Shown piece after piece: positions 9,401 through 27,615 of a stretch of 27,615 bases of DNA (positions are counted from its first letter, which is position 1; each line of letters opens with the position of its first letter). This stretch comes from a virus. Taxonomy: Duplodnaviria; Heunggongvirae; Uroviricota; Caudoviricetes. Position numbers and translations under genes: made by a program. The notes beneath the pieces are model-generated. The model did no database searches, had not been told where the DNA came from, and saw only the letters and a list, made by a program, of their open reading frames with translations. The stretch covers positions 69,551 through 97,165 of IMG/VR virus record IMGVR_UViG_3300045996_003062, one strand, 5' to 3'.

Positions 9401-9428
9401 CCCGCCCCTCATCTCCCGGAGGGGCGGG
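9401..9428 (+). terminator. 10-bp GC hairpin after the first rightward gene
   Basis: CCCGCCCCTC-N8-GAGGGGCGGG; no U-tract, so it may be a pause or stability element. Confidence 0.45.
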
Positions 9429-9450
9429 GCACCTGAACCTGAGCGAGCGG

Positions 9451-9639
9451 ATGATGAGCCTCTGGGCCGATTCGATGGTGGGGCGCGCCACAGTAGCGCG
9501 GCTGGTCGCGCGCGCGACGCGCGAGGGGAGGACTCTGTCGGAGTTCGGGCGCCGATACCGCGAGGAGCGCGGCTGGGGTTGCGTGCACACGCAGGCGCTA
9601 CTCGCGTCGTGGGCAGATGCTTCCGTAGTGGCAGGCTGA
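9451..9639 (+). CDS. Hypothetical protein (62 aa)
   Basis: Stop TGA overlaps next ATG (TGATG); weak RBS. Confidence 0.5.
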   Translation: MMSLWADSMVGRATVARLVARATREGRTLSEFGRRYREERGWGCVHTQALLASWADASVVAG

Positions 9640-10495: not shown

Positions 10496-10554
10496 CCACA
10501 GCACATCGCGTCCCTCTCCGGGGGCGCTCCCCACCCATGGAAGACGAGGGCGAG

Positions 10555-10758
10555 ATGGCGACCTGCACGACCTGCGGGAACGACCGCTGGATCTACAGCG
10601 AACGCACGCCGGTGCGGGCCCCGTGCCCCACCTGCACGAACGGGTGGCCTCGGGAGCGCGGCGAGCCGATCACGCTGCGAGCGCCCTACGGCAGCGGACC
10701 GGCGGAGGCCGTTGGCGGCAACGTGCCGCGGCTCCACGACCACAAGGAGGATCAGTGA
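10555..10758 (+). CDS. Zinc-ribbon protein (67 aa; alternative start 10537)
   Basis: CTTC...CPTC; GAGG upstream; stop coupled to next gene. Confidence 0.7.
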   Translation: MATCTTCGNDRWIYSERTPVRAPCPTCTNGWPRERGEPITLRAPYGSGPAEAVGGNVPRLHDHKEDQ

Positions 10759-10949
10759 CCACGACGCAGCGGAGCGAGGCGTACACGCTGACGGGCGAGG
10801 CGCGGGACCGTGCGGCCGCCGCGGCGCGCCGGTGCTTCCGAGGCCGCTTCGACCACGACGCCGAGCCCGTGGTTCACACCACCGTCAGCGGTGACGGCGT
10901 GTGGGTCGAGGGCCTGGTGTTCGTCTCTGCTGAGGAGATGGCTTCGTGA
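10755..10949 (+). CDS. Hypothetical protein (64 aa)
   Basis: AAGGAGG RBS; GTGA coupling; DGVWVEGLVFV motif. Confidence 0.75.
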   Translation: MTTTQRSEAYTLTGEARDRAAAAARRCFRGRFDHDAEPVVHTTVSGDGVWVEGLVFVSAEEMAS

Positions 10950-11476
10950 GCGTTCTGGACGAGATGAGGGCAGAACTCGCCGACGTGGAAGCGCGGATCG
11001 CGCGGCTGGAGGGACGTCGCCCCGCCGACGACGGGATGACCGCAGCGTTCCACCTCGGGCGCGTCGGCGGGAGCGGGAACCGGCGCGCGATCGGCCGGCT
11101 GAATGCGCGCCACGCGGCGGCTGTCGAGCGGTTGGTGGACCTCAGTGTGGCGCTGGTGCCGCTCTACCAGGAGCGCGACGGGCTGCGGCGGCAGCTAACC
11201 GACGAGGAGAGCGGGAAGGCGGGGCGGCGGCGGACAGCAGAGGACGAGCGCGACCGACTGTTGGTCGCGGCCTTCATGGACGCGGGGGTCGGCGACACGA
11301 TCCGCGTGGCGACGTTCGGCTGGAGCGGGACCGTCACGCGGAAGAACCGGCTGTCGCTCTCGATCGACGGCGGCTCGCTCTGGCCCATCGCCGATGTCAC
11401 CGGCCTCACGTCCAAGCGGGCCCGCGCCATCCTGGAGGAGCTGGAAGCGGAACGGCGAGAGGGGTGCGCCGCATGA
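10946..11476 (+). CDS. Coiled-coil protein with C-terminal SH3/KOW-like domain (176 aa)
   Basis: GAGGAG RBS; GTGA coupling; VGDTIRV...GTVTRKNRLSL. Confidence 0.8.
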   Translation: MSVLDEMRAELADVEARIARLEGRRPADDGMTAAFHLGRVGGSGNRRAIGRLNARHAAAVERLVDLSVALVPLYQERDGLRRQLTDEESGKAGRRRTAEDERDRLLVAAFMDAGVGDTIRVATFGWSGTVTRKNRLSLSIDGGSLWPIADVTGLTSKRARAILEELEAERREGCAA

Positions 11477-12000
11477 AACGCCTGCATCGTGGCACCACGT
11501 TCAACGTCCAGTACCGCGGCCCCGTGGTCGACGCCGGCCGTATGACGTACGAAGAGACGGAGAAGGCGGCGGGCGGTGCCGTTAGAGCGGCGGTCAGAGG
11601 ATGCGAGGTGCTGTTCGGGTCGGCGGTCGTGTGCGAGGCGTCGGCCGTCTTCATCCCCCGGGAAGGTCGGATCGCCGTCTCGGTGACCTGCACGGAGGAC
11701 GGACGCCGAGCGCTCGCGAAGGAGCGCGCCTTGGTCGAGGCGCTGACCGGCGCGATACAGCTGGCGGTTGCCAGCGTCGTATCCGAGCGCGACGGCCGAG
11801 CCAGGCGCCACCGCGTCGTGCGGACCGTCAGCGTCGGGATCATCCTCGGCGCTTCCGCCCTCGCGGTTCTGGCGGGCTACGCCTACCTGCACGGGATGGA
11901 GTACATGCCCCAGCGCCTCGCCCCTGTCGCCCTGTTCTACCTGGTGGTGGGCGTGGCCCTCTACCCCGAGAAGCGCGAGAGCGCGAAGGAGACGACGTGA
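11473..12000 (+). CDS. Membrane protein with two C-terminal TM helices (175 aa)
   Basis: ATGA coupling; hydrophobic VSVGIILGASALAVLAGYAYL and LAPVALFYLVVGVALY. Confidence 0.75.
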   Translation: MKRLHRGTTFNVQYRGPVVDAGRMTYEETEKAAGGAVRAAVRGCEVLFGSAVVCEASAVFIPREGRIAVSVTCTEDGRRALAKERALVEALTGAIQLAVASVVSERDGRARRHRVVRTVSVGIILGASALAVLAGYAYLHGMEYMPQRLAPVALFYLVVGVALYPEKRESAKETT

Positions 12001-12722
12001 CGAACGACGCGTACACGGCGCGAGTTCTGGAGAAGGTTGAGACACGTCCGGGATGCTGGCGCGGGCTGCGCGTCGGGGTCTTCCGCGGGGAGGAACAGGT
12101 CGGCGAGTACCAGCGTGGCTACGATGAGCTGTACAGGACGTTCTTCCCATTCGTACGAGGGGGAGTCTGGTACGCCCTCTACTCGGCGGCGTATACGAAG
12201 ACAAGCGTGATGCGGCTCCCGGAATGCGAGCCGGTCGGTGGCGAGACCGATGGACCGGGTGGGTTCTGCCCCGTGGACTACTACGTCCCCTCGTGGCGAT
12301 GGGTGCGCGATGGGAAGCTCTCTGGGTGCGGGCATGTCACGTACGTGGAGCACGACCACGAGCACGCCGACCTTCATGACGAGGCTGCGGTGAGGGCGGT
12401 GTCGGAGATCGGCGCCGAGGCGGACGTCGGGCCGGTGGAGTTCGCCCCGTTCGGCTTCGTCGCCGGCTGCGTTTGGGGAGACGATTCGTCGTGGAAGGTC
12501 CAGGTTCTCGACCTGCGCGATGCGTCCAACCCGGTGCGAACTGACGCTCTCGGCTACTTCGTTCTGCCGGATGGGATGGCGCTACGTGATGCCGTCCGGT
12601 TCGATGCGGGCACACGCACGTTCGCGATTGCGGAGGCCCGTCGCTACTCATACGCCACCGACGTGGCGCTCCTGCCACGTAGCGAAGAGCGTCCGACCCC
12701 AGCACCATGGAGCACCGGATGA
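11997..12722 (+). CDS. Conserved phage protein (241 aa)
   Basis: AAGGAG RBS; GTGA coupling; GGFCPVDYYVP...FGFVAGCVWGDDSSWK..LDL pattern recalled from soil-phage hypotheticals. Confidence 0.85.
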   Translation: MTNDAYTARVLEKVETRPGCWRGLRVGVFRGEEQVGEYQRGYDELYRTFFPFVRGGVWYALYSAAYTKTSVMRLPECEPVGGETDGPGGFCPVDYYVPSWRWVRDGKLSGCGHVTYVEHDHEHADLHDEAAVRAVSEIGAEADVGPVEFAPFGFVAGCVWGDDSSWKVQVLDLRDASNPVRTDALGYFVLPDGMALRDAVRFDAGTRTFAIAEARRYSYATDVALLPRSEERPTPAPWSTG

Positions 12723-12928
12723 GCAACGCAGCAGAGGGCGCGGCCCGGAGTCCGGAGCGGATCGCGGAGTTCCGCTACAACGCGCAGACCGCAGTGGACG
12801 ACCACGACTGGCGCAGCCTCGGCCACTGGATGCCCGAAGCGCTCGACGAGATCGAGCGTCTACAGGCCGAGGTGGCGCGGCTGGAGGCCGTCGTACGGGG
12901 CGAGGCGCCGCGGGCAGGCGACGGCTGA
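12719..12928 (+). CDS. Hypothetical protein with Ead/Ea22-like C-terminal heptad (69 aa)
   Basis: ATGA coupling; ALDEIERLQAEVARL. Confidence 0.75.
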   Translation: MSNAAEGAARSPERIAEFRYNAQTAVDDHDWRSLGHWMPEALDEIERLQAEVARLEAVVRGEAPRAGDG

Positions 12929-13010
12929 CCTCCACCGAGACGCGCACCGCGGTTCCGCCTGACGGCGGGGGCTGCCGCCCCGTGGACCTACACGAAGGAG
13001 AGGAGACCGC

Positions 13011-13277
13011 GTGAAGATCACGACAGGGGACATCGTTGAGGCCATCCAGCGGGACGCGGCCGAAGCGTCGGCGCTGGCCGAGATGGTGGACGAGCTCGCG
13101 GCGTACATGGTGACGCTGGCGGACGTGGTCGCGAACGTATCCGGCCCCGGTCGCTCGCTCGGCGAGGGAGGGCGCACCCGCGTAGACAAGGCGGTCGCGC
13201 TGCTGGGTCAACTTGGCTACGACCCGCGGCGGGCCACACACGCGCTCGCTCTCCGGGCGGAGGCGGTGAAGGCATGA
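13011..13277 (+). CDS. Helical hypothetical protein (88 aa)
   Basis: GAGGAG RBS before GTG. Confidence 0.75.
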   Translation: MKITTGDIVEAIQRDAAEASALAEMVDELAAYMVTLADVVANVSGPGRSLGEGGRTRVDKAVALLGQLGYDPRRATHALALRAEAVKA

Positions 13278-13495
13278 CCACGCGACGCATCCCCGACGGA
13301 ACTACGGTGTGCGTGGTCCGAGGAGGGGTCGTGGTCGAGGCCGTGGTGCTGGCCCGGCACGGCGCGACGCGTGTGTGGCCTGCGCACTCCCTCTACAGCG
13401 TCCGCCCGCTACGACCTGGCGCCTTCCCCATCTGGATACGTGCTGACCGGCTGGAGGCGGAGAACCCCGACAAGGTGACGGAGGTGGAGACGTGA
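13274..13495 (+). CDS. Small SH3-like protein, paralog A (73 aa)
   Basis: ATGA coupling; ends RLEAENPDKVTEVET. Confidence 0.75.
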   Translation: MTTRRIPDGTTVCVVRGGVVVEAVVLARHGATRVWPAHSLYSVRPLRPGAFPIWIRADRLEAENPDKVTEVET

Positions 13496-13704
13496 AGCGC
13501 GTTACGATGGGCCACGAGGTACGGGTGCAACTCGAAGGCGCGTGGGTCGACGGCACGGCGGTCGGCTGGTACTCGGACCGTCCGGACGCGCCGCCGTACT
13601 ACCGCGTCGTGGTCCGCTTCACCGACCGGTGGCAGGGAGTCGAGTGCATCGCGGCATCGGACCTTGAGTCGTGGAACCCCGACGAGGTGGTGGAGACCCC
13701 ATGA
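13492..13704 (+). CDS. Small SH3-like protein, paralog B (70 aa)
   Basis: GGAGG RBS; GTGA coupling; ends DLESWNPDEVVETP. Confidence 0.8.
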   Translation: MKRVTMGHEVRVQLEGAWVDGTAVGWYSDRPDAPPYYRVVVRFTDRWQGVECIAASDLESWNPDEVVETP

Positions 13705-13961
13705 AGCGTACGCCCCGTGAGCACCCCGACGACTACGTGGACGACGAGGGCGTCGTGCGCCGGCCGCTCCGTCGTCGCTCCGCCTCCCTCAGCCTGGACG
13801 ACGTGGCGAGGATCGCTGCCCGGCAGGGACCGGACTCGCCTGCGGCATGGGCCGCACGCACTGCCGCTGAGCTGGGCGACGGGTGTAGCTTTGAGGTAGA
13901 CGAGCAAGATGCGTGGATCGTGGAGCGAGGCGGGAACGAGCGAACCGAGGGGGAGTCGTGA
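13701..13961 (+). CDS. Hypothetical protein (86 aa), paralog of 14568..14783
   Basis: ATGA coupling; LDDVARIAARQGPDSPAAWA motif. Confidence 0.75.
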   Translation: MKRTPREHPDDYVDDEGVVRRPLRRRSASLSLDDVARIAARQGPDSPAAWAARTAAELGDGCSFEVDEQDAWIVERGGNERTEGES

Positions 13962-14575
13962 AGGACGACATGGAAGTTCATCTGGAGGTGGAACGCCTCC
14001 GGGCGAGGGTCGCCGCACTGGAGACCGAGAGGGCGGCGACCTATCGCGCCATCCGTCGCAAGGCGCCTGTGCTCGACGAGGCGGGGGCCCTGCCGACACT
14101 GGTGCGGTTCGCCATCTGGAGCGAGAGCGGTCTGGCGAACAAACGGGTGAGCGAACGCCCCTACGTCCGACTGGTCGAGAACGAGTTACTAGACGCTTCG
14201 GGCAAGCTCCGGAAGCTGCGGCTCCACTACGCGCGGCTGAAGGTCGCCCGCGACCGCTGCCTCAGTCGCGCGATCAAGGCCGAGGCGGCACTCCTCCGGG
14301 CTCAGGAAGGGGCGGCCGTCCGCGACCCGGACGAGGTCGCCGCCCACGGGGACGCACGGGCTTCGGGATTGGCGGCGAACCGGGCCAGGATGGAGCGCCG
14401 TCGCCGCGGAGCCAACCACCCGGATCGGGTCGCGCGCCGTGCCGAGATGCGCGCGTCAATGGAGGAAGCCGCCGCCGATCCCGAGTACGTGGCCGAGATG
14501 GAGCGGGAGAACGCGGTGTGGGACTGCACCGCAGGGGATGGACTCACCGAGTACGAGGTGCGAGGCGATGAGTGA
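13958..14575 (+). CDS. Coiled-coil protein with MazE9-like C-terminal tail (205 aa)
   Basis: GTGA coupling; ends MEEAAADPEYVAEMERENAVWDCTAGDGL. Confidence 0.8.
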   Translation: MKDDMEVHLEVERLRARVAALETERAATYRAIRRKAPVLDEAGALPTLVRFAIWSESGLANKRVSERPYVRLVENELLDASGKLRKLRLHYARLKVARDRCLSRAIKAEAALLRAQEGAAVRDPDEVAAHGDARASGLAANRARMERRRRGANHPDRVARRAEMRASMEEAAADPEYVAEMERENAVWDCTAGDGLTEYEVRGDE

Positions 14576-14783
14576 GCGGCGACCGAAGGCGCGGGTGGTG
14601 GAGCGGGCGACGCTGGAGCGCGTTGCGCGCGTCATGGGCCGAGGCAGCGGAGCCGCGCAGGCCATCGCGCACGCGGACCGGCAGGCGGAGCCCCAGGTCT
14701 TCCTCGACGTCGGTGGGACGTGGCTGGTGGTCCCCGCTTCCCATGTGGATGACGGACGCCTGAACGCGGTGCTCGGCGGATGA
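14568..14783 (+). CDS. Hypothetical protein (71 aa), paralog of 13701..13961
   Basis: GAGG RBS; LERVARVMGRGSGAAQA. Confidence 0.75.
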   Translation: MSERRPKARVVERATLERVARVMGRGSGAAQAIAHADRQAEPQVFLDVGGTWLVVPASHVDDGRLNAVLGG

Positions 14784-15172
14784 GCGAGGACACGACGCAG
14801 GTTCCCGAGCGGTGGACGGCGGACGAGATCAGGGTCGTACGCGCGGAGCTGGACGCCGCCCTGTCCGGCAAGGCGCACGACACCTGGGGCCTCTCCCACG
14901 CCGCCCTGTCGGCCGCCCTCGCCCGTCTCGCGCACCTGGAGGAGGAGAACGCCCGACTGCGGAAGGAGTACCGCCCGACGGAGATACGTCGCAGGAAGCG
15001 CAAGAACGGTAGTGAGCCGATAGACGAGGTGGTGGCGCACGGCTTCGTCCACCTGGAGGACATGGGGGTAGGCTGGTGGTACCTCGGCGTCTACACGACG
15101 GATGGGGAGCACATGCAGTTCCGGATCGAGAGTAAGCGGTGCATCCGGTACGACGGCGGCGGACCTGAGTGA
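14780..15172 (+). CDS. Phage hypothetical protein (130 aa)
   Basis: ATGA coupling; IDEVVAHGFVHLEDM..GWWYLG motif. Confidence 0.8.
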   Translation: MSEDTTQVPERWTADEIRVVRAELDAALSGKAHDTWGLSHAALSAALARLAHLEEENARLRKEYRPTEIRRRKRKNGSEPIDEVVAHGFVHLEDMGVGWWYLGVYTTDGEHMQFRIESKRCIRYDGGGPE

Positions 15173-15558
15173 GCACGACCGCCCGCTGCACGATCCTGTG
15201 CTGTGGCTCCCGTGACTGGACGGACGCCGAGGCCATCGGGGCCACGCTGGCCCGCCTCACGTCGACGGCGTACGAGCGTCGGCCCGTGACGGTGTACGTC
15301 GGCACCCGACCGGGAGCGGACGATCTGGTGCGGTCCGTCGTCGCGGAGCGGCTACCGGGCGTGACGCTGGCGGACACCCCGGAGCGGATGGACGTCGCCT
15401 CGCTCGACTACCTGCTGGCGTTCCACGCGGACTTCGCCGGCAGCGGCACAACCCGCCAGCTCGCGTCACGCGCTGTAGCGGCCAGGGTCACGGCGTACGT
15501 CCACGATGGGAAGGAGATGGTGCCGGCGGGACGGGTGCTGAACGTAGGGCGGTACTGA
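15169..15558 (+). CDS. SLOG-superfamily (YspA/DUF2493-like) protein (129 aa)
   Basis: ILCCGSRDWTD...GTRPGAD...LLAF...GSGTT pattern; the glycine loop is degenerate. Confidence 0.75.
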   Translation: MSTTARCTILCCGSRDWTDAEAIGATLARLTSTAYERRPVTVYVGTRPGADDLVRSVVAERLPGVTLADTPERMDVASLDYLLAFHADFAGSGTTRQLASRAVAARVTAYVHDGKEMVPAGRVLNVGRY

Positions 15559-15691
15559 CGACGGCGGCACTTGGCCACCCAACCCCGGGATGCGCGGGTG
15601 AAATTAAAGCCAACCACGCGCGCCGCAACGGATTAGCCCTGGCCATCCGAATGGATCACGCGAGCGCGCGCCGCGGGGGAGGGGATCGATC

Positions 15692-15979
15692 CTACGGGGT
15701 TCCCCCGCTCTGCTTCTTGGGGCGCCCACCGCGCGTCCGCCGCTTCTCGGGTGACTCGGCCGCCAGCGCCCTCGCTTCCTGGGCCAGCTCGCGCAACCGC
15801 TCGGCGTGACGCTCCAACGCCGCGGCCAGCTTGTCCACGCTGGCGCGGTCGGGCACGGGTGGGTTCCGCTCCATCCATGCGGTGACGGTCCGCCGGGAGA
15901 GACGGGTGAGGGACGCCAGCACGGTAACCGGCAGATGCGAGCGGCGGATGATGCTCCGGAGACGGCTGGTAGGTGACAT
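15692..15979 (-). CDS. XRE-like HTH regulator (95 aa), probably leaderless
   Basis: LPVTVLASLTRLSRRTVTAW helix-turn-helix; ATG exactly 6 nt after a -10 box; no RBS. Confidence 0.75.
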   Translation of the reverse strand: MSPTSRLRSIIRRSHLPVTVLASLTRLSRRTVTAWMERNPPVPDRASVDKLAAALERHAERLRELAQEARALAAESPEKRRTRGGRPKKQSGGTP

Positions 15980-15985
15980 GGGCGG

Positions 15986-16014
15986 AAGATACCCGGCCGG
16001 CGAAGCCGATTCAA
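15986..16014 (-). promoter_or_regulatory. Leftward promoter PL2
   Basis: Minus strand TTGAAT-N17-TATCTT-N6-ATG. Confidence 0.75.
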
Positions 16015-16018
16015 GCGG

Positions 16019-16047
16019 TTGAATCGCGGCGCTTGCGCGGTTATATT
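16019..16047 (+). promoter_or_regulatory. Rightward promoter PR2
   Basis: TTGAAT (16019-16024)-N17-TATATT (16042-16047); the two -35 boxes form CGATTCAA-GCGG-TTGAATCG. Confidence 0.8.
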
Positions 16048-16092
16048 TGATGCTCGAATGTGCGCAGCGAATACAGACGAGGGAGGCGGTGG

Positions 16093-16548
16093 ATGGACGC
16101 GACCGAATCGGTGAAGTCGGTGCTCTGGGATCTCGGCCAGTTTGAGGAGGCGGTGGGGTTGGACAACGGCCCGGGCGAGGACGTGCTACCCATTCGCGTG
16201 GAGCGCCTGCGGTGGCTTGCCGCGCTGGTCCGCCGCTTCGCTGGCGGCGACGCCCCGGCTGCGGAATGTGAGCCGAAGCCCACGCGCTATGCGCTCGGGG
16301 GCTTACTCGCGGAGACGCGGGGCCCGCGGTCGTGGGCAGAAGCCGAAGCGGGGGGTGCGGCCGAGACGTGGGCCGTTGTTGACTCTGTCCGCAACGTGTG
16401 GAACGAACGGGACGGCCTGTGGGAGTGGGAGCCTCAACCGTCCGACCGAACGGACGAGTTCCTGGCCCGCACGCGCTATCCGAAATCTGTGGCGGTGGCG
16501 ATCCTTCGGCGGCTCGCCACCGCCACGGCGGGGGTGCAGGATGGGTGA
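16093..16548 (+). CDS. Phage protein with WEWEPQPS-R-DEFL motif (151 aa)
   Basis: GGAGG RBS; WAV...DGLWEWEPQPSDRTDEFLARTRY is a recurrent phage motif (recalled). Confidence 0.8.
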   Translation: MDATESVKSVLWDLGQFEEAVGLDNGPGEDVLPIRVERLRWLAALVRRFAGGDAPAAECEPKPTRYALGGLLAETRGPRSWAEAEAGGAAETWAVVDSVRNVWNERDGLWEWEPQPSDRTDEFLARTRYPKSVAVAILRRLATATAGVQDG

Positions 16549-16759
16549 CGCGAGACCGGTGCCGGACTTCGACGCCGACGCGTTCATGGATGCATGGGAC
16601 GCGCGCAAGCGGCTGGAGATCAAGGCGGATAGCGCAGTTGCAAGAGCGGACGCGCTGTGCCGCAACGCCGCCGAGGAGATGCAGCGCGACTTCGACTGCC
16701 CGCTCGTCTTCGAGTGGCGCCTGGCCACGCCCCGCGCCGCAGAGGTGCCCCGTGGCTGA
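16541..16759 (+). CDS. Hypothetical protein (72 aa)
   Basis: 8-nt overlap with upstream stop; helical acidic sequence. Confidence 0.7.
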   Translation: MGDARPVPDFDADAFMDAWDARKRLEIKADSAVARADALCRNAAEEMQRDFDCPLVFEWRLATPRAAEVPRG

Positions 16760-17006
16760 GACGTCCACCCCGATCCCGGATCGCTACGTCGCATTTGGGA
16801 AGGCGGTTGCACGCCTGTGCCGCGACTTCGGCATGCAGGACTTCACGGGAACCGTCCGTCCTGGGTGGGACGACGACGAGTGGCGCGACCCCGTAACGTT
16901 CAACTGGAAGCAGGGCCGCCACGGCGAGGACAGCGACCAGCTACACATCGCCTCCACCCTGAACGTACGGACGACCATCGGGCCGAAGGAGGCGAACCAT
17001 GGCTGA
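16752..17006 (+). CDS. Hypothetical protein (84 aa)
   Basis: GAGG RBS; GTG overlaps upstream gene end; NWKQGRHGED motif. Confidence 0.75.
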   Translation: MAETSTPIPDRYVAFGKAVARLCRDFGMQDFTGTVRPGWDDDEWRDPVTFNWKQGRHGEDSDQLHIASTLNVRTTIGPKEANHG

Positions 17007-17463
17007 GACGCGCGCGACGACAGCGGCCCGACCCGCGGACGAGTGGAGCGACGACGACGGGCCCGTTCTCTGGTGGACGTTCCCGGTGGAGGAGCCCCCG
17101 TACGTGGGGACGCCCGGGGATAGCGGGTGGCCGGGTGACGGGGTGTTCACGCACTGGACACCGATCCCCGTGCCCGACGATCCCGAGGACGGACTCCGAC
17201 GGCTCACACGGTTCACCGACCGCGAGCGGGAAGCGCTTCGCGAATGGGTCTGGATCGGCATGCATGACCACGCGGGCGACCTCCGGCGGTGCATCGAGAT
17301 GACACGCTCTGGAATGCACCCGTCCCCGCAGGACTTGGACTTCTGGCTTGGCCGGGTGGAGACGCTGCTGAATGACATCCAGACCATCGGCGGGTTCGTA
17401 ACGCGGGCGTACGAGGCGAACGTGGACGTGCCCCTGCCGGGGGAGGTGACGACCGATGGCTGA
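16999..17463 (+). CDS. Phage protein with DDGPVLWW..P..EPPYVG...THWTP domain (154 aa)
   Basis: AAGGAGG RBS; recurrent phage domain recalled as DUF551-like. Confidence 0.8.
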   Translation: MAETRATTAARPADEWSDDDGPVLWWTFPVEEPPYVGTPGDSGWPGDGVFTHWTPIPVPDDPEDGLRRLTRFTDREREALREWVWIGMHDHAGDLRRCIEMTRSGMHPSPQDLDFWLGRVETLLNDIQTIGGFVTRAYEANVDVPLPGEVTTDG

Positions 17464-18085
17464 CTCCTCTACACCCCAGGGCGGGGAGACGCCCGCGGCG
17501 ATGGAGCCGCTGTCACCGAACCGCTGCACCGCGTGCTGCAAGATTCCGACGGTGCAGGCCGCGCGTGCGGCAGCGGACCGCGGATCGTGGGTGGCGTGGT
17601 GTGAACATGGGACGGCGGCGTCCGTCTCCGGCCCGACCCGCAAGGAATGTGTTGCCGCATGGAACGCGCTGAACCCCAAGGAGCGGAAGGGGTTCGGTGT
17701 CTACGTGGCGAGCCGGACGAAGCACGCCGCCGAGTGGCGCGGCCTTCGGGCGAACGGCGTCCCCATCGTCTCTACCTGGATAGACGAGGCCGGTCCCGGG
17801 GAGAGCCCCGACCTTGTGGACCTGTGGCGTCGGTGTGAGCGAGAGGTGCGCAACGCCGCGTGCGTGGTCCTCCTGTACGACGAGGGGATGGAAGGCGCGT
17901 TAGTGGAGGCGGGGATCGCCATTGCCAGCGGCGTGCCGGTCTTCGTGGTGGGCGAGCCGAAGCGGACCGGGTTCAAGAACCATCCAGGCGTCCTTCACGC
18001 CGACACGCTGGACGACGCCTTCGGCTTCGCGTACGACGTGTGCGGCGGATGGCGCGACGACACGCCCGCGGAGCCCGCCCCGTGA
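17456..18085 (+). CDS. Lar-like zinc finger fused to a nucleoside 2-deoxyribosyltransferase-like domain (209 aa)
   Basis: N-terminal CTAC...WC...ECVAAWN; C-terminal VYVAS...WID...C.REV..A..VVL...GALVEAGIAIA.G.PVFVVG. Confidence 0.8.
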   Translation: MADSSTPQGGETPAAMEPLSPNRCTACCKIPTVQAARAAADRGSWVAWCEHGTAASVSGPTRKECVAAWNALNPKERKGFGVYVASRTKHAAEWRGLRANGVPIVSTWIDEAGPGESPDLVDLWRRCEREVRNAACVVLLYDEGMEGALVEAGIAIASGVPVFVVGEPKRTGFKNHPGVLHADTLDDAFGFAYDVCGGWRDDTPAEPAP

Positions 18086-20041: not shown

Positions 20042-20226
20042 ACCGAGAGGCGGCGTTGATTCTGGCGAACTGGCGGCGGACCGAGACGCCCCACGGGGCG
20101 ATGCTGGACGAGATGCTGGCGCGCCTGAACCGGCAGGCGGAGGAGACGGTTGGCGCACTGTGGCCGCGGGCGCGTGCCATCCGTCCCGGTCTTTTGCTCC
20201 ACCGCCGCGGGAAGGATGACGCGTGA
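20038..20226 (+). CDS. Hypothetical protein (62 aa)
   Basis: GTGA coupling on both sides; GGAGGG RBS. Confidence 0.65.
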   Translation: MNREAALILANWRRTETPHGAMLDEMLARLNRQAEETVGALWPRARAIRPGLLLHRRGKDDA

Positions 20227-21725
20227 CAACACGATCCGTCGGGAAGGCGACGACGCTACACCTCGGGGACTGCCGCGACGTCCTCCGCTCCATGCCAGAC
20301 AACAGCGTGGACGCGGTGGTGACGGATCCGCCCTACGGCCTCAACTCCGAACTTTCCCCCAAGGAGCTGGCGGGGATGCTCGCCGCGTGGTCTGCGGGGG
20401 AGCCCTGGCAGCGAAAGGGCGGCGGGTTCATGGGACGGGAGTGGGATTCGAGCGTCCCCGGCCCCGACGTCTGGCGCGAGGTGTTCCGGGTGTTGAAGCC
20501 CGGCGGCCACGCCCTCGTCTTCGCGGGGACGCGGACCTACGACTTGATGGTGCTGGCGCTACGGCTGGCGGGGTTTGAATGTCGCGACTGCCTGGCCTAC
20601 CACTTCGCTTCGGGATTCCCGAAATCGCTGGACGTGAGCGCCGCGCTGGACCGGAGGGCAGGTGCGAAGCGGGAGGTCGTTGGGCCGAATCCTACATGGC
20701 GGGATGCGAAGCGCGACAACCGCATCATGCGCCCCGTTTCCGGTGATGGGGCGAAATGGATCACGGCGCCCGCATCCGAGTCCGCCCGCCAGTGGGAAGG
20801 ATTTGGGACGTCTCTCAAGCCCGCCTTTGAGCCCATCGCCCTCGTACGGAAGCCACTGGCGGGAACGGTTGCTGAGAACGTCCTGTCCTACGGAACAGGA
20901 GCGCTGAACATCGGAGGATGCAGGATCGGAACTACGAAGGATGTGCCTGCGTCGCCAGCCAAGGCGCGCATCAACATCGCCAAGGGGGCCGAGCGCGACC
21001 GTGCGGCGGACACCTCCGGTTACAACCCGGACGTCGGCCGCTGGCCTGCCAATGTCCTGCTGGGAGACTCTGAGGTAGCGGAGATGCTGGATGCGCAGGC
21101 GGGGGAACGGCCTGGGGTGGGCAAGCCTCGCGTGCTACGCCGCGGACACAGTACCTCCAGCGGAATCGGCTACGGCTCCACTGCGGAGGGCGGCGCGGCA
21201 CCCGTAGGATTTCAAGACTCAAGCACGAACGCATCCCGGTTCTTCTTCACGGCGAAGCCCGCGAAGCGGGAGCGTCACCTCGGATGCCGTGACCTGTACT
21301 GGCGCCGAGATAAGTCGTCACCGACGGGCGTGGTCCGCGTATCCCGCGAGGAGTGGGAAGCTCTGCCGGAAGCGGAGCAGGCGCACGGGAATATCCACCC
21401 CACCGTGAAGCCGCTGTCCGCGATGCGGTGGCTGGTCCGCCTCGTCACCCCACCGGGCGGGACGGTGCTGGACCCGTTCGTGGGAAGCGGCACGACGGCG
21501 ATGGCGTGCGAGGCGGAAGGGTTCGAGTGCGTGGCCGTGGACCTGTACGCCGACCACCTGGACGTGGCGGCCTGCCGGATCGGTTCGGTGCACGAGCTGG
21601 GGGAGAAGCGACCCCCGATTGCGAAGGCCAAGCGCGAGGTCGCGCCGCCGCCCACACCAACCGTGCCGCGGCCGGACGTGGCCCCTCGCGTGCTCGACCT
21701 GTTCAGTATGGACGAAGCGGCGTGA
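20223..21725 (+). CDS. DNA N6-adenine/N4-cytosine methyltransferase, beta group (500 aa)
   Basis: GDC..VL, VTDPPY (motif IV) N-terminal; HPTVKP and LDPFVGSGTT (motif I) C-terminal. Confidence 0.95.
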   Translation: MTTRSVGKATTLHLGDCRDVLRSMPDNSVDAVVTDPPYGLNSELSPKELAGMLAAWSAGEPWQRKGGGFMGREWDSSVPGPDVWREVFRVLKPGGHALVFAGTRTYDLMVLALRLAGFECRDCLAYHFASGFPKSLDVSAALDRRAGAKREVVGPNPTWRDAKRDNRIMRPVSGDGAKWITAPASESARQWEGFGTSLKPAFEPIALVRKPLAGTVAENVLSYGTGALNIGGCRIGTTKDVPASPAKARINIAKGAERDRAADTSGYNPDVGRWPANVLLGDSEVAEMLDAQAGERPGVGKPRVLRRGHSTSSGIGYGSTAEGGAAPVGFQDSSTNASRFFFTAKPAKRERHLGCRDLYWRRDKSSPTGVVRVSREEWEALPEAEQAHGNIHPTVKPLSAMRWLVRLVTPPGGTVLDPFVGSGTTAMACEAEGFECVAVDLYADHLDVAACRIGSVHELGEKRPPIAKAKREVAPPPTPTVPRPDVAPRVLDLFSMDEAA

Positions 21726-21741
21726 CTGGCAGGTCGCCCCC

Positions 21742-21770
21742 TTCCTCCGCACCTGTGTTCGGCTTATCTT
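21742..21770 (+). promoter_or_regulatory. Candidate promoter for the ncRNA
   Basis: TTCCTC-N17-TATCTT; the -10 is identical to that of PL2, the -35 is weak; predicted +1 near 21777 coincides with the first base of a long hairpin. Confidence 0.4.
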
Positions 21771-21776
21771 TGGTGC

Positions 21777-22500
21777 GCGGGACTCGCACCGGCATCAGCG
21801 CCGGAGAGCGCGGTCCTGCTTGGCTGGACTGGTGCCGCCGGTCTCCGAACTCCGCAACGTGCTTGCGGGTGCCGTCTCTCAGGAGACGGATAGGAACCGG
21901 GGCGCTTCCGGGTCTGAGGCCGGCCCCTGCCGGATAGGACTCACGTCGCCCCTTCGGGGGGCTTTCGCTGGGTGGGGGGATCGCGAGCGCGTGCGCAAGC
22001 GAGACGAGGACGGAAAGGGCCTGTGCACGCTCAGGTTCCCACCTGGGCGGCGGGGGATGGCGGACGCGCTTCAGCGCTGCCGCTGGCTACGGGGCCGGGC
22101 CGGGGACCGATTCGGCAAGCCCAAGGTGATACCGGCGCAGGGTTGCCGGAGAGAGGGTGCGAATCCCTCCCCCGTACCTGAGTCTGAGACGGCGCCAGTC
22201 GCCGGGGTAGGACTCACCCGGGCACGCTTCGGCGGAGCCCTCTGTGGCAGGAACGGCGGTTCAGGACTGGGCTTACCCGGTCGCCGCTGAAGGTGTGGGC
22301 GGGACGCCGCCCGTGCCGACCTCTCGCTGGTGGTGGAATGGGGATTCCCGTTCGCGGCGAGAGCGGCCACGTCGTGAGGACGTCGCCAGTACCCGGATGG
22401 AGCTCCGCGCCGTTTACAGGGCTGGGGCGCCATCCCACGCGGAACGGCCACGCGCCGGCCGCTGATCCTACGGCCGTCTCCTCACGGGGGCGGCCGTAGT
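21777..22500 (+). ncRNA. Putative giant structured ncRNA (~725 nt), unassigned
   Basis: No coupled or RBS-bearing ORF; more than 12 hairpins with UUCG and GNRA loops; long-range helix 21822-21845/22186-22203; G-T wobbles favour the + strand; ends in a 14-bp hairpin. Confidence 0.65.
22088..22177 (+). other. tRNA-like cloverleaf inside the putative ncRNA
   Basis: 7-bp acceptor-like stem TACGGGG/CCCCGTA, T-arm GAGGG-TGCGAAT-CCCTC, GGGC/GCCC arm, CCGGC/GCCGG arm with 8-nt loop; no CCA and no canonical anticodon loop. Confidence 0.5.
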
Positions 22501-22507
22501 TGCGTTA
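22468..22507 (+). terminator. Terminal hairpin, probable intrinsic terminator
   Basis: CTACGGCCGTCTCC-TCAC-GGGGGCGGCCGTAG (14 bp, two G-T pairs) followed by TTGCGTT; sits at a convergent junction. Confidence 0.6.
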
Positions 22508-22614
22508 CAGAGTAAGCGCTTGAGACATAGCAGGTTGCGCGTCGCGAATCACATGCCCGTCACATTAGCAAGCGCCCCCGGTTCCATCGTGGACCCGCAG
22601 ACGTGTTGCTACGC

Positions 22615-22950
22615 TCATTCCCACCACCCCATCTCGCGTCCGTACGAGACCACGTCGGCATCCTCCTGCTGCCTCACCGCCTCTACCCTCGCCCACTCTT
22701 CTCGCTCGCGCTCATCGCGCGCCGGGTCGTAGCGCCAGTCGGCGGAGTTCATCAGTCGAGACAAACGACTGCCCGGCGACCAGTCGTGGGAGAGGTGCGC
22801 GGGGAGCGCCCGTATCTGCGCCTCGATTGCCTCCTCGCGGCGCGGTCTGGGTGGCCGCGACAGGTCCGGATCTCCCCAGTACGGGTCCACGGCGTCCCAG
22901 CCGATGGGGTCGTGCGTCGATGACGATACGACCTTTTCTTGTGGAGACAT
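22615..22950 (-). CDS. Hypothetical protein (111 aa)
   Basis: Purine-rich RBS before ATG 22950; last gene of the leftward unit. Confidence 0.65.
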   Translation of the reverse strand: MSPQEKVVSSSTHDPIGWDAVDPYWGDPDLSRPPRPRREEAIEAQIRALPAHLSHDWSPGSRLSRLMNSADWRYDPARDEREREEWARVEAVRQQEDADVVSYGREMGWWE

Positions 22951-23011
22951 GTTCCCTGCCCTTCTGGAGGAGAAGGACGCGCACGCGCGTCTAGGTGGAT
23001 GTCGTCCCCGC

Positions 23012-23212
23012 TCACTTGTCCATGAACGCCAGGAGGATTCGAGCGGTCCGCCCCAGCTCCCGCCGACCCGCTTCGGCATTCCGCCAGAGTCCGGCGTCTA
23101 CGCCCGTAGCCGCCGCCGCGTCGCGCGAGCTCCACCCGCGCCGCTCCCGCCACTCGCGGAGGGCTTCCCCGCTCCCCGGACCCTCCGCAGGATCGGGGCG
23201 GACCTTCCTCAC
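23012..23212 (-). CDS. XRE/Cro-like HTH protein (66 aa; alternative start 23221)
   Basis: GEALREWRERRGWSSRDAAAATGVDAGLWRNAEAGRR; GTGA overlap with the ibrB stop. Confidence 0.75.
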   Translation of the reverse strand: MRKVRPDPAEGPGSGEALREWRERRGWSSRDAAAATGVDAGLWRNAEAGRRELGRTARILLAFMDK

Positions 23213-25557: not shown

Positions 25558-25973
25558 GCCGTCACCTCCGCCTCGGTGATCTCCTCGATCCGGCCATCCG
25601 CGACCCGGCAGAAGTAGCGCCGCTCGCGGCCGTGGCTGATAAGGTCGTTCACCTCGTACAGCTTCCCGGCGCGGAGCGTGTAGATCATGTACACCCCGCG
25701 GGCCCCGAGGCCCCGCACGCCCGTCGTGTCGCGCTGTCCGTGGACGGGCGTGCGGGTCGGCCGCCCATCCACGACGGGGGCTCCGACCTCCGCCACCCAC
25801 GGATGCCGGAGCGGACGGTAGAGGTTCTTCGCGACGCGGGGAGGCGGTCGCTGGTCCCGGTGCTTCCGGAAATGCGGCACAGCCACCCGCAGGTCGTCGC
25901 CGATCGCCTCCAGGCGAATCGTGGCCGTCTGCGTCGCCCGCGGCGGAGTCAGGCGAACCCCGGGCGTCGTCAC
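25545..25973 (-). CDS. Conserved phage protein of the type found beside ibrAB (142 aa)
   Basis: GTGA coupling; WVAE...G.RGVY..Y.L..G..YEV...RYFC.V pattern (recalled). Confidence 0.8.
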   Translation of the reverse strand: MTTPGVRLTPPRATQTATIRLEAIGDDLRVAVPHFRKHRDQRPPPRVAKNLYRPLRHPWVAEVGAPVVDGRPTRTPVHGQRDTTGVRGLGARGVYMIYTLRAGKLYEVNDLISHGRERRYFCRVADGRIEEITEAEVTACLG

Positions 25974-26413
25974 CCCGCGGCGACCCAGCCGAGGTTCGTC
26001 TCCGCGCCCTGAATCTCCGGGTGGCGCTCGGCCAGCAGGCGCCGGGCGATGTTGACGGTCCCTTCCTTCGTCGCCGCCTGGACCGTCCGGACCTCCGCCA
26101 CCAGCCACTCCCAGTCGAGCATCAGCGACAGGTAGGCCGGGTGGTCGCCGTTGGTGCCGTACCGCAGATGAGCCCTGCGACCTTCGGGCAGCGTCCGTCC
26201 CCCCGCGGTCACGGGAAGTGGACGGCCGGTGCTCCAGTCGCAGGGCTCTCCGTCGGGGCCGTACAGCGCGGCGTACGCATACGGCTCCTCCTGGTCCGTC
26301 AGATGAGCCGCCGCGGCCTCCGCCGTCTCGTGGAAGGACTGACGCAGCTTACCGGCCGGGGCCCCGGTCATCGCCGGCCACGTGTAGATGTGGAGATTGA
26401 ATCGGCCGCCCAT
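25970..26413 (-). CDS. Hypothetical protein (147 aa)
   Basis: GGAGGAG RBS; first gene after a candidate promoter. Confidence 0.75.
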   Translation of the reverse strand: MGGRFNLHIYTWPAMTGAPAGKLRQSFHETAEAAAAHLTDQEEPYAYAALYGPDGEPCDWSTGRPLPVTAGGRTLPEGRRAHLRYGTNGDHPAYLSLMLDWEWLVAEVRTVQAATKEGTVNIARRLLAERHPEIQGAETNLGWVAAG

Positions 26414-26473
26414 GGTGCTCCTCCGAAGAAGGAAGGGGTGCGGATCGCGCTCTCAGTCCAAGACCTCGCCGGT

Positions 26474-26503
26474 AATATGGTGACAGTGTCGCCGGATGCG
26501 CAA
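26474..26503 (-). promoter_or_regulatory. Candidate promoter for the ibr operon
   Basis: Minus strand TTGCGC-N18-CATATT in an AT-richer intergenic gap. Confidence 0.4.
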
Positions 26504-26518
26504 GGGTGTCCGTGCGCC

Positions 26519-27079
26519 CTACTCCGCCAGCCAGTCGGGGAGCGGCACGCCGTCCCTGACGTACTGCCGGCGGATGCGCTCCAGCAGGTCCACCCTCGCC
26601 GCCGCTCGCTCCGCCGGGGCGAGGTCGCGTAGAAGCACGTCGATCGCCAGCCCTGCGTCCCCCGCAGACACGCTTCCCGCGTCGTCGCGGTGCGCCAGCC
26701 ACCAGCGTTGCAGGCGTGCGCGGTTGGGTGCGTACGGCTTCGCCCCGTCTAAGAACTTGCGGAGGCCGGTCGGACTGATGCGCCCCACCTCGGCAGCCAC
26801 CGGCCGAAGGCCGCGGGCGTCCACCTCGCGCGTGAGCCGGGCGCGGATGCGGGAGATGGGCACGAAGTCCAGGACGGGGGTCGGCGCCGGCATGGATGGG
26901 CGAGGGGCTGGCGACGCGGGCGGGGCGTCGGGCTCCGGCTCCAGCGGCAGGCCCATCTCGCGGCGGAGACGGCGCACCTCGTCCAAGAGCTCCAGCGCAA
27001 CCGGCCGGAATCGCGACCTCGTGGACGCGCCCTGCTCCAGGAGCGCGCGTATCTCGGCCAGGCGGTGCAGGTCCATCAT
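26519..27079 (-). CDS. HTH protein with SPTGLRKFLDG motif (186 aa)
   Basis: GLRPVAAEVGRISPTGLRKFLDGAKPY helix-turn-helix; Pro-rich linker. Confidence 0.8.
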   Translation of the reverse strand: MMDLHRLAEIRALLEQGASTRSRFRPVALELLDEVRRLRREMGLPLEPEPDAPPASPAPRPSMPAPTPVLDFVPISRIRARLTREVDARGLRPVAAEVGRISPTGLRKFLDGAKPYAPNRARLQRWWLAHRDDAGSVSAGDAGLAIDVLLRDLAPAERAAARVDLLERIRRQYVRDGVPLPDWLAE

Positions 27080-27081
27080 CG

Positions 27082-27615
27082 TCAGGCGTCGCCCTCGTCC
27101 CGCACCTCTCCGCGCCGGTCCGGCGCCACGGCCCCGACGGTGAGAAAGTCGCCGCGCTCCATCGCGATCAGGAGAACGCGCGCATCCACATTCTCCTTCA
27201 TCGTGTCCAGCATCTCCTCCGTGAAGGACCCGCGCCGCTCCCCCGCCTGGCCGACGATGTCGCGGAGGACGAACGTGAGGCGGTCAACGTCGATCTCCCC
27301 GATGCGGCCGGACAGGACGACCGCCGCCTCCGTCGTTTCGCGCTTCAGCGCCGCGCTCACACGACGTCGCGAGTCGCTGTTGAGCCGGACGCCGCGACCA
27401 GGCGCCCAGGCCCCGCCAAGTTGGACTTCTGTTATCGGGCTGCCCGCTGGTGGGGTGAGGTTGAGGACGGCGCCCAGGATCGCAGCTCGCTCTTCCGGCG
27501 AGTCACCCGGAGGCGGAGCGCCGTCCGGCCCGGCCGCCCACGCGAGCCCCGCACGCAGGCGGTCAACCACGCGCGGGATGTCCGGGTCCGGAAGCAACCC
27601 CTCAGCAGGCGCGCC
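27082..27615 (-). CDS. Hypothetical protein, 5' partial, possible C-terminal OB-like domain
   Basis: Frame stays open to the window edge; LSGRIGEIDVDRLTFVLR. Confidence 0.7.
   Translation of the reverse strand, partial: GAPAEGLLPDPDIPRVVDRLRAGLAWAAGPDGAPPPGDSPEERAAILGAVLNLTPPAGSPITEVQLGGAWAPGRGVRLNSDSRRRVSAALKRETTEAAVVLSGRIGEIDVDRLTFVLRDIVGQAGERRGSFTEEMLDTMKENVDARVLLIAMERGDFLTVGAVAPDRRGEVRDEGDA

What the first reader, a model, noticed from the sequence alone, without database searches (positions are those of the whole stretch)
21777..22500. Candidate giant structured phage ncRNA (~725 nt) with its own promoter and terminator
Seen: in a region otherwise tiled by coupled genes, about 880 nt between the methyltransferase stop and the next convergent gene carry no credible gene. 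The stretch is packed with helices: 21777-21819 (GCGGGAC/GTCCTGC enclosing CCGGC/GCCGG), CCGCAA/TTGCGG (21852-68), CCGTCTC/GAGACGG (21872-89), CCGGC/GCCGG (21920-33), CCCC-TTCG-GGGG (21949-60), GACTGGG/CCCGGTC (about 22265-82), GGGCGG/CCGCCC (22297-312), CTCTCGCTG/CGGCGAGAG enclosing GAATGGG/CCCGTTC (22321-63) and a 14-bp terminal stem. A long-range helix GACTGGTGCC (21827-36)/GGCGCCAGTC (22191-200), extended by GTCTC/GAGAC and GGC/GCC, closes a ~340-nt domain. G-T wobbles favour the + strand. Established: GOLLD and ROOL are phage-associated ncRNAs of roughly 600-800 nt that form RNA-only multimers. Inference: this is a member of such a class or an undescribed one.
Basis: partly seen in the sequence, partly recalled or inferred. 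Interest (0 to 1): 0.92.

Follow-up and report, generated by a model that had tools for sequence, protein, structure and literature searches.

The report
Modular non-coding RNA spacer in phage
An 890-base protein-free stretch between two converging gene blocks of an uncultivated high-GC phage is real, but it reads as a chain of small reusable RNA hairpin modules ending in a terminator-like hairpin, not as one giant folded RNA of the GOLLD/ROOL kind.

Summary
The gap 21726-22614 is real and is the longest stretch of the 97-kb phage without codon periodicity. None of its ORFs matches a protein family.

Evidence for one giant fold is weak:
- Whole-region folding gives z about -2.1 to -2.6 on both strands, and one of 11 coding control windows does as well.
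- The + strand ensemble is no better defined than shuffles.
- Long-range 10-bp helices occur at chance rate (19 against 19.2).
- Rfam finds no GOLLD, ROOL, OLE, HEARO, raiA, intron, tRNA or tmRNA. The only hit is a sub-threshold DUF3800-IX match.
- The phage is a singleton, so covariation of the whole region cannot be tested.

What does hold is + strand-specific. Local hairpins are in excess (31 against 20 expected), the 14-bp 3' hairpin has z -5.9, and two small motif families recur:
- A bulged hairpin "X" occurs three times. It is frequent in non-coding parts of unrelated viral contigs, often at terminators or just after tRNAs, and its outer stem covaries.
- A stem/UGAG/hairpin/RUAG/stem module occurs twice and is seen in a few other contigs after stop codons.

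Best reading: a modular non-coding 3' RNA region, not a GOLLD/ROOL-like RNA. First readers noted similar GACCGGG/CCCGGTC stems in two other genomes of this scan (unchecked).

The parts
21726..22614 (.). Protein-free spacer between two convergent operons
   Evidence: No codon-position GC bias. ORFs inside it have no Pfam, PHROG or tblastn match.
20223..21725 (+). Upstream flank: DNA methyltransferase gene, last gene of the + strand block
   Evidence: Pfam N6_N4_Mtase, E 1.7e-22. Best relative 49% identical.
21742..21770 (+).
   Evidence: Read directly from the sequence. It matches 6 of 12 consensus positions and is not reported by the consensus scan.
21777..21819 (+). Hairpin H1, followed by UUGG: either the 5' hairpin of the RNA or the terminator of the methyltransferase operon
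   Evidence: Pairs verified. MFE -26.6 kcal/mol, z -3.8, 1/200 shuffles as stable.
21820..21851 (+). X0: weak third copy of the bulged X hairpin (stem GACUGG/CCGGUC).
   Evidence: Model R2 scores 12.9 bits, E 0.008 in 2.2 kb. The local fold is the MFE.
21834..21907 (+). Module A: three-way junction resembling the DUF3800-IX motif. Its closing stem competes with X0
   Evidence: Rfam RF02968 scores 24.5 bits against a gathering score of 36.8. Fold z -2.7.
21910..21944 (+). Module B: GGGUC / UGAG / 5-bp hairpin / AUAG / GACUC-AC
   Evidence: Direct repeat with module C. Model R1. The closest relative, L202, has the same inner hairpin.
21948..21969 (+). GC hairpin with UUCG loop plus a UUUCGCU tail: possible internal terminator
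   Evidence: Sequence. The tail resembles the TTTCGCGTTTC tails of this phage's three repeated terminator hairpins.
22088..22176 (+). Degenerate tRNA-like element: 7-bp acceptor-like stem plus a T-arm with loop UGCGAAU
   Evidence: Sequence. Not called by ARAGORN or by the Rfam tRNA/tmRNA models. The cloverleaf is not the MFE, z -0.6. The same T-arm occurs in tRNA-like elements of other viral contigs.
22180..22217 (+). Module C: GAGUC / UGAGA / 5-bp hairpin / GGGUAG / GACUC-AC
   Evidence: It is 79% identical over 39 nt to the copy in L211. L090/L093 share the flanks.
22220..22243 (+). GC hairpin with UUCG loop following module C
   Evidence: Fold.
22254..22291 (+). X1: bulged hairpin with a 7-bp outer stem, a 4-nt bulge and an inner stem GACUGGG/CCCGGUC carrying a U-G pair
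   Evidence: R2 was built without window sequences. It scores 27 bits on the + strand only. Fold z -3.1.
22297..22312 (+). Hairpin GGGCGG/CCGCCC
   Evidence: Pairs verified.
22321..22363 (+). X2: second full copy of X (inner stem GAAUGGG/CCCGUUC). Relative to X1 it has a C-G to A-U compensatory change, and the U-G pair is kept
   Evidence: R2 scores 25.5 bits on the + strand only. Pairs verified.
22468..22510 (+). 14-bp hairpin plus UUGCGUUAC tail: probable + strand intrinsic terminator and 3' end of the RNA
   Evidence: z -5.9, 0/200 shuffles as stable. Its two G-U pairs would be A-C mismatches on the minus strand. The tail resembles the phage's other terminators. The cumulative GC skew peaks here. 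The consensus scan does not report it because the T-run is weak.
22615..22950 (-). Downstream flank: convergent 111-aa gene with no relative anywhere
   Evidence: Translation. Only a self-hit among 5.8 billion proteins. No hit in the viral contigs.

Best explanation
The 890-bp gap is a true non-coding spacer whose + strand is the functional strand.

Proposed working:
- It is most likely transcribed as the run-on 3' region of the methyltransferase operon, or from a weak promoter near 21742-21770.
- The transcript ends at the strong hairpin 22468-22499.
- The RNA is a string of autonomous local modules rather than one globally folded giant RNA.

The modules, in order:
- hairpin H1;
- three copies of a bulged hairpin X (X0, X1, X2);
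- a DUF3800-IX-like three-way junction (A);
- two copies of a stem/UGAG/hairpin/RUAG/stem module (B, C), each followed by a UUCG-capped GC hairpin;
- a degenerate tRNA-like element in the middle.

X and B/C also occur singly in unrelated viral contigs, where they sit right after stop codons or tRNAs and at, inside or beside intrinsic terminators.

Shown: the region is non-coding, the signals favour the + strand, the modules recur elsewhere, and the stems of X covary.

Inferred: the modules are 3'-end elements, meaning termination, 3'-end protection, processing or protein-binding sites. The region would then stop and insulate the two converging operons, and it may be cut into several small stable RNAs, perhaps at the tRNA-like element.
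For: Non-coding:
-.

+ strand:
- Hairpin excess on + only.
- R2 hits on + only.
- G-U pairs in the 3' hairpin.
- The cumulative GC skew keeps the + operon sign until about 22500.

Strong local elements:
- H1 z -3.8, A z -2.7, X1 z -3.1, 3' hairpin z -5.9.

No global fold:
-.

X family:
- At least 118 pattern hits in viral contigs.
- In contexts without codon periodicity, the variable inner pair is complementary in 23 of 26 distinct hits. In periodic (coding-like) contexts it is complementary in 18 of 39. Fisher p 6e-4.
- The outer stem covaries, score 0.248 against 0.109 in shuffles, 0/500 shuffles as high.
- Terminator and tRNA contexts.
- Not in Rfam.

B/C family:
- L090/L093, L127, L202 and L211 keep the outer stem and junctions, while the inner hairpin changes sequence but stays a hairpin.
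- It lies after stop codons and before terminator hairpins.

Independence of the modules:
- X and B/C do not co-occur elsewhere.

Terminator style:
- The tails match the phage's other terminators.
Against: - No transcript data exist for this phage.
- No promoter is recognised.
- B, C and the tRNA-like element fold no better than shuffles.
- The B/C family is small, 5-6 distinct members. It was found with a pattern that fixed most of its sequence, so only the inner hairpin is independent evidence.
- The R2 scores of X1 and X2 (25-27 bits) overlap those of coding look-alikes picked up by the same pattern.
- The 16 sequences used for the covariation count were chosen partly because they had an outer stem.
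- X0 and module A overlap and cannot both form.
- What any of these modules does is unknown, so the 3'-end role rests on context only.
- About 40% of the region (21970-22087 and 22395-22467) is not assigned to any module.
Confidence: 0.45

Rival explanations
1. One giant structured ncRNA of about 725 nt and of an undescribed class, comparable to GOLLD or ROOL. The recurrent modules would be its building blocks and the whole would fold, and perhaps multimerise, as a unit.
For: - Its length is in the GOLLD/ROOL range.
- It is the longest non-coding stretch of the genome.
- There is a + strand hairpin excess.
- Whole-region z is about -2.1 to -2.6.
- It has a strong 5' hairpin and 3' hairpin.
- L211 also carries a C-like module about 480 nt into a non-coding stretch of at least 650 nt.
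Against: - No Rfam large-RNA family matches, even at E up to 10.
- Ensemble diversity is not below that of shuffles on +.
- Long-range helices occur at chance level.
- The z score is equalled by a coding control window and by the minus strand.
- The modules occur singly and separately in other phages.
- There is no tRNA neighbourhood.
- L211 shares nothing with the region beyond the module.
Confidence: 0.17
2. A functionless spacer: a junkyard between convergent operons that has collected terminator hairpins and small palindromic or mobile mini-elements. The structure signal would be a by-product of 70% GC.
For: - Most thermodynamic tests are at or near background.
- Internal sequence repeats are not above shuffles by blastn.
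- The modules are found scattered in unrelated phages, as mobile mini-elements would be.
- In L090 versus L093, homology breaks right after the module.
Against: - Phage genomes rarely keep about 0.9 kb of useless DNA, and this is the largest gap in 97 kb.
- The GC content of the gap (0.70-0.71) is as high as that of the coding DNA.
- The hairpin excess and motif hits are strand-specific.
- The U-G pair is conserved and X shows compensatory changes, which points to selection at the RNA level.
- The exact X pattern occurs in only 3 of 401 Actinomycetota genomes, one copy each, so it is not a high-copy REP-like repeat there.
Confidence: 0.2
3. A DNA-level element, such as a replication origin, a partition or recombination site, or a protein-binding palindrome array. 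This could be linked to the adjacent ParB-like/IbrB gene or to the methyltransferase. The B/C stems contain GANTC sites.
For: - There are many imperfect palindromes.
- A ParB-N-like gene lies 600 bp away.
- GAGTC/GACTC arms flank modules B and C.
Against: - There are no iterons and no AT-rich unwinding region.
- T-G mismatches are conserved exactly where an RNA or single-strand hairpin would wobble-pair.
- The inner spacer of B/C is always self-complementary, which a duplex binding site does not need.
- The signals are asymmetric between strands.
Confidence: 0.07
4. A missed protein-coding gene or a recently decayed pseudogene.
For: Open frames of 223 aa (+) and 126 aa (-) cross the region.
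Against: - Codon-position GC is flat.
- There are no Pfam, PHROG or tblastn hits.
- Long open frames are common by chance at 70% GC.
Confidence: 0.03

Closest known systems
GOLLD (RF02032) and ROOL (RF03087) large phage-associated ncRNAs
   Same: Phage-borne, non-coding, in the 600-800 nt size range, and rich in local helices.
   Different: No covariance-model match even at E up to 10. Not next to tRNA genes. No support for a defined global fold or for long-range helices. No homologues of the whole region.
DUF3800-IX RNA motif (Rfam RF02968; Weinberg et al. 2017, PMC5737381)
   Same: Module A (21834-21907) aligns end to end with the 67-position three-way-junction consensus, including the CCGAAC and UAGG junction strands.
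   Different: The score is 24.5 bits against a gathering score of 36.8. Weak hits of this model also occur in 8 of 14 control genomes. The phage has no DUF3800 gene. It is a resemblance, not a member.
tRNA-like processing signals (t-elements; tRNA-like punctuation in phage operons)
   Same: An acceptor-like 7-bp stem is stacked on a T-arm (22088-22176). The same UGCGAAU T-arm is found in tRNA-like ends of other viral contigs, some ending in CCACCA.
   Different: Not recognised by ARAGORN or the Rfam tRNA models. The cloverleaf is not the predicted MFE. Cleavage is untested.
Intrinsic terminators and terminator-linked 3' elements of phage operons
   Same: The GC-rich 14-bp hairpin at the point where the two operons converge has a tail like this phage's three repeated terminators. 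The X and B/C modules lie at or beside terminators in other phages.
   Different: The U-tract is weak and is not called by the consensus scan. About 700 nt of extra structured sequence precede it, far more than a terminator needs.
VIPR vrRNA arrays (bioRxiv 10.64898/2026.04.26.720920), present elsewhere in this genome
   Same: A non-coding RNA locus in the same phage.
   Different: The gap has no runs of period-5 GGYNN repeats. The only such runs are at genome 51173-51281 on the minus strand (repeat rule).

Membership tests
GOLLD / ROOL / OLE / HEARO / raiA / group I and II introns (Rfam) | Match to the family covariance model at or above the gathering score | tested here: not met
   0 matches at gathering over the whole window. 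None of these families is listed even at E up to 10 in 21650-22700.
GOLLD / ROOL | Typical location beside tRNA genes in phage or prophage DNA (from the literature, PMC12286853 and own knowledge) | tested here: not met
   No tRNA in the window. The phage's six tRNAs lie at genome 6.4-31.5 kb, at least 60 kb away.
GOLLD / ROOL | Conserved multi-domain fold supported by covariation, and RNA-only multimers | not testable with these tools
   No homologue of the whole region was found. Thermodynamic proxies do not support a defined global fold.
DUF3800-IX (RF02968) | Score of at least 36.8 bits | tested here: not met
   24.5 bits at 21834-21907.
DUF3800-IX (RF02968) | Association with a DUF3800 (PF12686) gene | tested here: not met
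   No PF12686 match in the 97-kb genome.
tRNA / tmRNA | Recognised by ARAGORN or by the Rfam tRNA or tmRNA models | tested here: not met
VIPR vrRNA | 9-16 tandem YNNGG units followed by a conserved tail | tested here: not met
   No run of 5 or more units in the gap.
Intrinsic (Rho-independent) terminator | GC-rich hairpin followed by a U-tract | tested here: inconclusive
   The hairpin is very strong, z -5.9. The tail UUGCGUUAC is U-poor and not called by the scan. It resembles the phage's other terminator tails.
   X1 and X2. Elsewhere the third pair is complementary in 23 of 26 non-coding contexts against 18 of 39 coding ones.
   X1 has a 7-bp outer stem, X2 has 8-9 bp, and X0 has a weak 4 bp. 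Outer-stem covariation is seen in 16 other loci.
   B and C in the window, and L202, L211, L127 and L090/L093 elsewhere.

The most novel reading that the evidence does not exclude
The region encodes a new class of large modular phage RNA of about 725-775 nt. The X hairpins, the B/C junction modules and a tRNA-like core would be the conserved bricks of a higher-order, possibly multimeric, architecture. The class would be invisible to Rfam, and this phage lineage has no sequenced relatives.
Probability: 0.15. Interest if true: 0.85.

Novelty: new variant of a known kind. Interest (0 to 1): 0.48.

Why it matters
If the modular reading holds, the locus is a compact catalogue of small phage RNA elements that no database names. 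The X hairpin is the most notable. It is frequent in non-coding DNA of phages with GC contents from about 0.4 to 0.7, keeps a U-G pair, and covaries. That suggests a conserved protein or RNase partner acting at transcript 3' ends or at tRNA-array boundaries. Finding that partner would explain a recurrent, unannotated feature of phage genomes.

For the original claim the lesson is methodological. At 70% GC, a list of helices read by eye, including a 10-bp long-range helix, is what chance delivers. Only the strand-specific hairpin excess and the recurrence of modules elsewhere rise above background.

Tried and rejected
Searches for homologues of the whole region found nothing:
- blastn against 50,697 phage records.
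- blastn and nhmmer against 37 loci with related methyltransferases.
- blastn and nhmmer against 80 loci with related IbrA genes.
- 401 Actinomycetota genomes gave only short chance-level matches.
- Plasmids gave chance-level matches only.

The phage itself is a singleton:
- Methyltransferase relatives are at most 49% identical.
- Terminase relatives are at most about 40% identical.
- The 111-aa neighbouring gene has no relative.

Sequencing runs:
- None was listed for the stretch, and no RNA holder was listed.

Ideas rejected:
- Ro60/Y-RNA: no TROVE gene in the genome.
- VIPR guide array: no GGYNN repeats in the gap.
- Cobalamin riboswitch resemblance of the UGCGAAU hairpin: not supported by Rfam.
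- Internal duplication of large units: blastn self-hits are no better than shuffles.

Noise and failed attempts:
- Most matches in the genome-wide pattern scan for the B/C module were coding or random.
- Separating coding from non-coding X hits by open-frame length failed at high GC. Codon periodicity was used instead.
- A literature search for the X stem as a sequence string gave only unrelated papers.

Full report
**Setting.** The window is the last 27.6 kb of a complete 97,165-bp IMG/VR phage record with direct terminal repeats and about 69% GC. A + strand gene block ends with a 500-aa DNA methyltransferase at 20223-21725 (Pfam N6_N4_Mtase). A minus-strand block (IbrA-like, GNAT, ParB-like and an ORFan of 111 aa) ends at 22615. 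The finding lies in the 890 bp between them.

**Is it non-coding?** Yes.
- Codon-position GC is strongly periodic through the methyltransferase, flat from about 21740 to 22520, and periodic again in the opposite phase from 22520.
- It is the only flat run in the window and the longest in the whole genome.
- The six ORFs of 68-223 aa that cross it match nothing in Pfam, PHROGs or translated phage records.

**Are the helices there, and are they more than chance?**
The terminal stem is 22468-22481/22486-22499.
- At 70% GC this alone means little, and the global tests are weak:
  - Whole-region MFE z is -2.6 (+) and -2.0 (-) with 20 shuffles, and -2.1 and -2.5 with 120 shuffles. It is modest and not strand-specific.
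  - Among 11 coding control windows of the same length, one reaches -2.4.
  - Six tiled 150-nt windows inside the gap average -0.2.
  - The + strand ensemble is no better defined than shuffles, with mean base-pair distance 217 against 190.
  - Uninterrupted long-range helices of 10 bp or more number 19, against 19.2 +/- 5.1 in shuffles. The helix said to close a 340-nt domain is therefore not evidence.
- What does exceed chance is local and strand-specific:
  - Hairpins with stems of 6 bp or more number 31, against 20.4 expected (13/300 shuffles as high). Stems of 7 bp or more number 17, against 8.6 (8/300).
  - This holds on the + strand only, and the region tops all windows.
  - Individually, H1 (z -3.8), module A (-2.7), X1 (-3.1) and the 3' hairpin (-5.9) stand out. 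Modules B and C and the tRNA-like element do not.

**Known families.**
- Rfam 15 gives no match at gathering thresholds.
- With permissive filters and E up to 10 it lists no GOLLD, ROOL, OLE, HEARO, raiA, intron, tRNA, tmRNA or riboswitch.
- The only hit is a sub-threshold DUF3800-IX match at 21834-21907, 24.5 bits against 36.8.
- That model also gives weak hits in 8 of 14 control genomes, and the phage has no DUF3800 gene.
- ARAGORN finds nothing in the window.
- The period-5 repeats of the VIPR guide RNAs that this phage carries elsewhere are absent from the gap.

**Promoter and terminator.**
- The consensus scan finds neither.
- The 3' hairpin is real and oriented. Its two G-U pairs become A-C mismatches on the other strand.
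- Its UUGCGUU tail resembles the UUUCGCGUUUC tails of three repeated terminator hairpins elsewhere in the genome.
- The cumulative GC skew keeps the sign of the + operon until about 22500.
- The + strand transcription unit therefore probably runs to 22500. Whether it starts at its own promoter or is read-through is open.

**Relatives.**
- The phage is a singleton. Methyltransferase relatives are at most 49% identical, terminase relatives at most about 40%, and the 111-aa neighbour has none.
- No homologue of the region was found in phage records, in loci around related methyltransferase or IbrA genes, or in 401 Actinomycetota genomes.
- Covariation of the whole region and expression therefore cannot be tested here.

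**Recurrent module B/C.**
- The unit is GRGUC / UGAG / hairpin / RUAG / GACUC-AC. It occurs at 21910-21944 and 22180-22217, each time followed by a UUCG-capped GC hairpin.
- Pattern scans recovered the same unit in two related viral contigs (L090/L093), an Actinomycetota MAG (L127) and two metagenome contigs (L202, L211).
- In these copies the outer stem and junction strands are kept. The inner hairpin differs in sequence but stays a 4-7-bp hairpin.
- The unit lies 0-14 nt after a stop codon and before a terminator hairpin in L093 and L202. In L127 it lies after a tRNA-Ala and a partial copy of that tRNA.
- The family is small, and the search fixed most of its sequence.

**Recurrent module X.**
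- The unit has a variable outer stem closed by G-C and U-G pairs, a 3-4-nt bulge ending in G, an inner stem GACUGGG/CCCGGUC (or GAAUGGG/CCCGUUC) with a U-G pair, and a free tetraloop.
- It occurs at 22254-22291 and 22321-22363. The two copies differ by a C-G to A-U compensatory change.
- A pattern for the inner stem hit at least 118 viral contigs. Many of these hits are coding look-alikes.
- In contexts without codon periodicity the variable pair is complementary in 23 of 26 distinct hits, against 18 of 39 in periodic contexts (p 6e-4).
- In 16 such loci the outer stem covaries, with score 0.248 against 0.109 in shuffles (0/500 as high) and at most 0.097 in the slid controls. Caveat: these loci were chosen partly for having a stem.
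- Model R2 was built without the window. In the 97-kb genome at E up to 10 it gives three hits: X1 (27 bits) and X2 (24.5-25.5 bits), both in the gap on the + strand, and a weak 11.5-bit hit (E 0.9) at window 1186-1249, outside the gap.
- With filters off over 21000-23200, R2 adds a weak third copy, X0, at 21814-21855.
- In other contigs X sits just after, inside or just before intrinsic terminators, and directly 3' of a tRNA in L355 and L417.
- X is not in Rfam.
- The exact X pattern is rare in Actinomycetota genomes, 3 of 401 with one copy each.
- X and B/C never co-occur in the other loci.

**The tRNA-like element.**
- The element at 22088-22176 is not recognised by any tRNA tool.
- Its T-arm with loop UGCGAAU recurs in tRNA-like elements of other viral contigs. 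Some of these end in CCACCA, and one resembles a tRNA-Tyr.

**Interpretation.**
- The evidence supports a + strand non-coding RNA region built from autonomous modules that other phages use one at a time at transcript ends.
- It does not support a single globally folded giant RNA, although that reading cannot be excluded without relatives or transcripts.
- Most likely the region ends and insulates the two convergent operons, and may yield several small stable RNAs. This mechanism is inferred from context, not shown.
- First readers of this scan noted GACCGGG/CCCGGTC stems in ORF-free, hairpin-dense regions of two other genomes. I did not check those notes.

Noticed in passing
L402:4662-4705, L327:619-662, L335:227-270 (-), L312:2290-2333, L404:39-82, L401:3473-3516, L355:4095-4139 (-), L417:781-824 (-) and others: A bulged hairpin motif 'X' is frequent in non-coding parts of viral contigs with GC 0.40-0.70. 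It has a conserved inner stem with a U-G pair, a variable loop and a covarying outer stem. It is not in Rfam. It often lies at terminators, and twice it lies directly 3' of a tRNA.
   Followed up: partly
L093:10722-10763, L090:2611-2652 (-), L127:1031-1072 (-), L202:2070-2109, L211:139-179 (-): A small stem/UGAG/hairpin/RUAG/stem module like modules B and C of the window. It sits just after stop codons and before terminator hairpins.
   Followed up: partly
L127:1080-1280 (-): In an Actinomycetota MAG, a tRNA-Ala(CGC) gene and its terminator are followed within about 50 nt by a second copy of the tRNA's 3' half. This looks like the scar of an integrated element. The B/C-like module follows directly.
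   Followed up: no
L211:1-655 (-): A metagenome contig has at least 650 nt without coding signal after a 91-aa gene. It begins at a near-consensus promoter (TTGACA, 17 nt, TATACT) and carries a C-like module about 480 nt in. There are no Rfam hits. It may be another long non-coding RNA locus.
   Followed up: partly
L420, L425, L427, L428, L426 (pattern hits); L424:3732-3840: tRNA-like 3' ends with the T-loop UGCGAAU followed by an acceptor strand and CCACCA occur in low-GC viral contigs. L424 looks like a tRNA-Tyr with this odd T-loop. ARAGORN calls none of them.
   Followed up: no
genome 5851-6780 (outside the window): This is the second longest stretch of the phage without codon periodicity, about 930 nt. 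It contains tRNA-Thr at genome 6477-6549.
   Followed up: no
genome 42086-42176, 54830-54920, 58603-58670 (outside the window): A three-copy element ends in a strong GC hairpin plus a TTTCGCGTTTC tail. It was used here as the phage's own terminator style.
   Followed up: partly
window 14000-14723: A coding stretch that folds as far below shuffles (z -2.4 on +, -1.8 on -) as the candidate region does.
   Followed up: no
window 8748-18085 and 25970-27597: Ten further predicted proteins of 147-220 aa have no Pfam family at E 0.001. The phage is largely made of ORFans.
   Followed up: no
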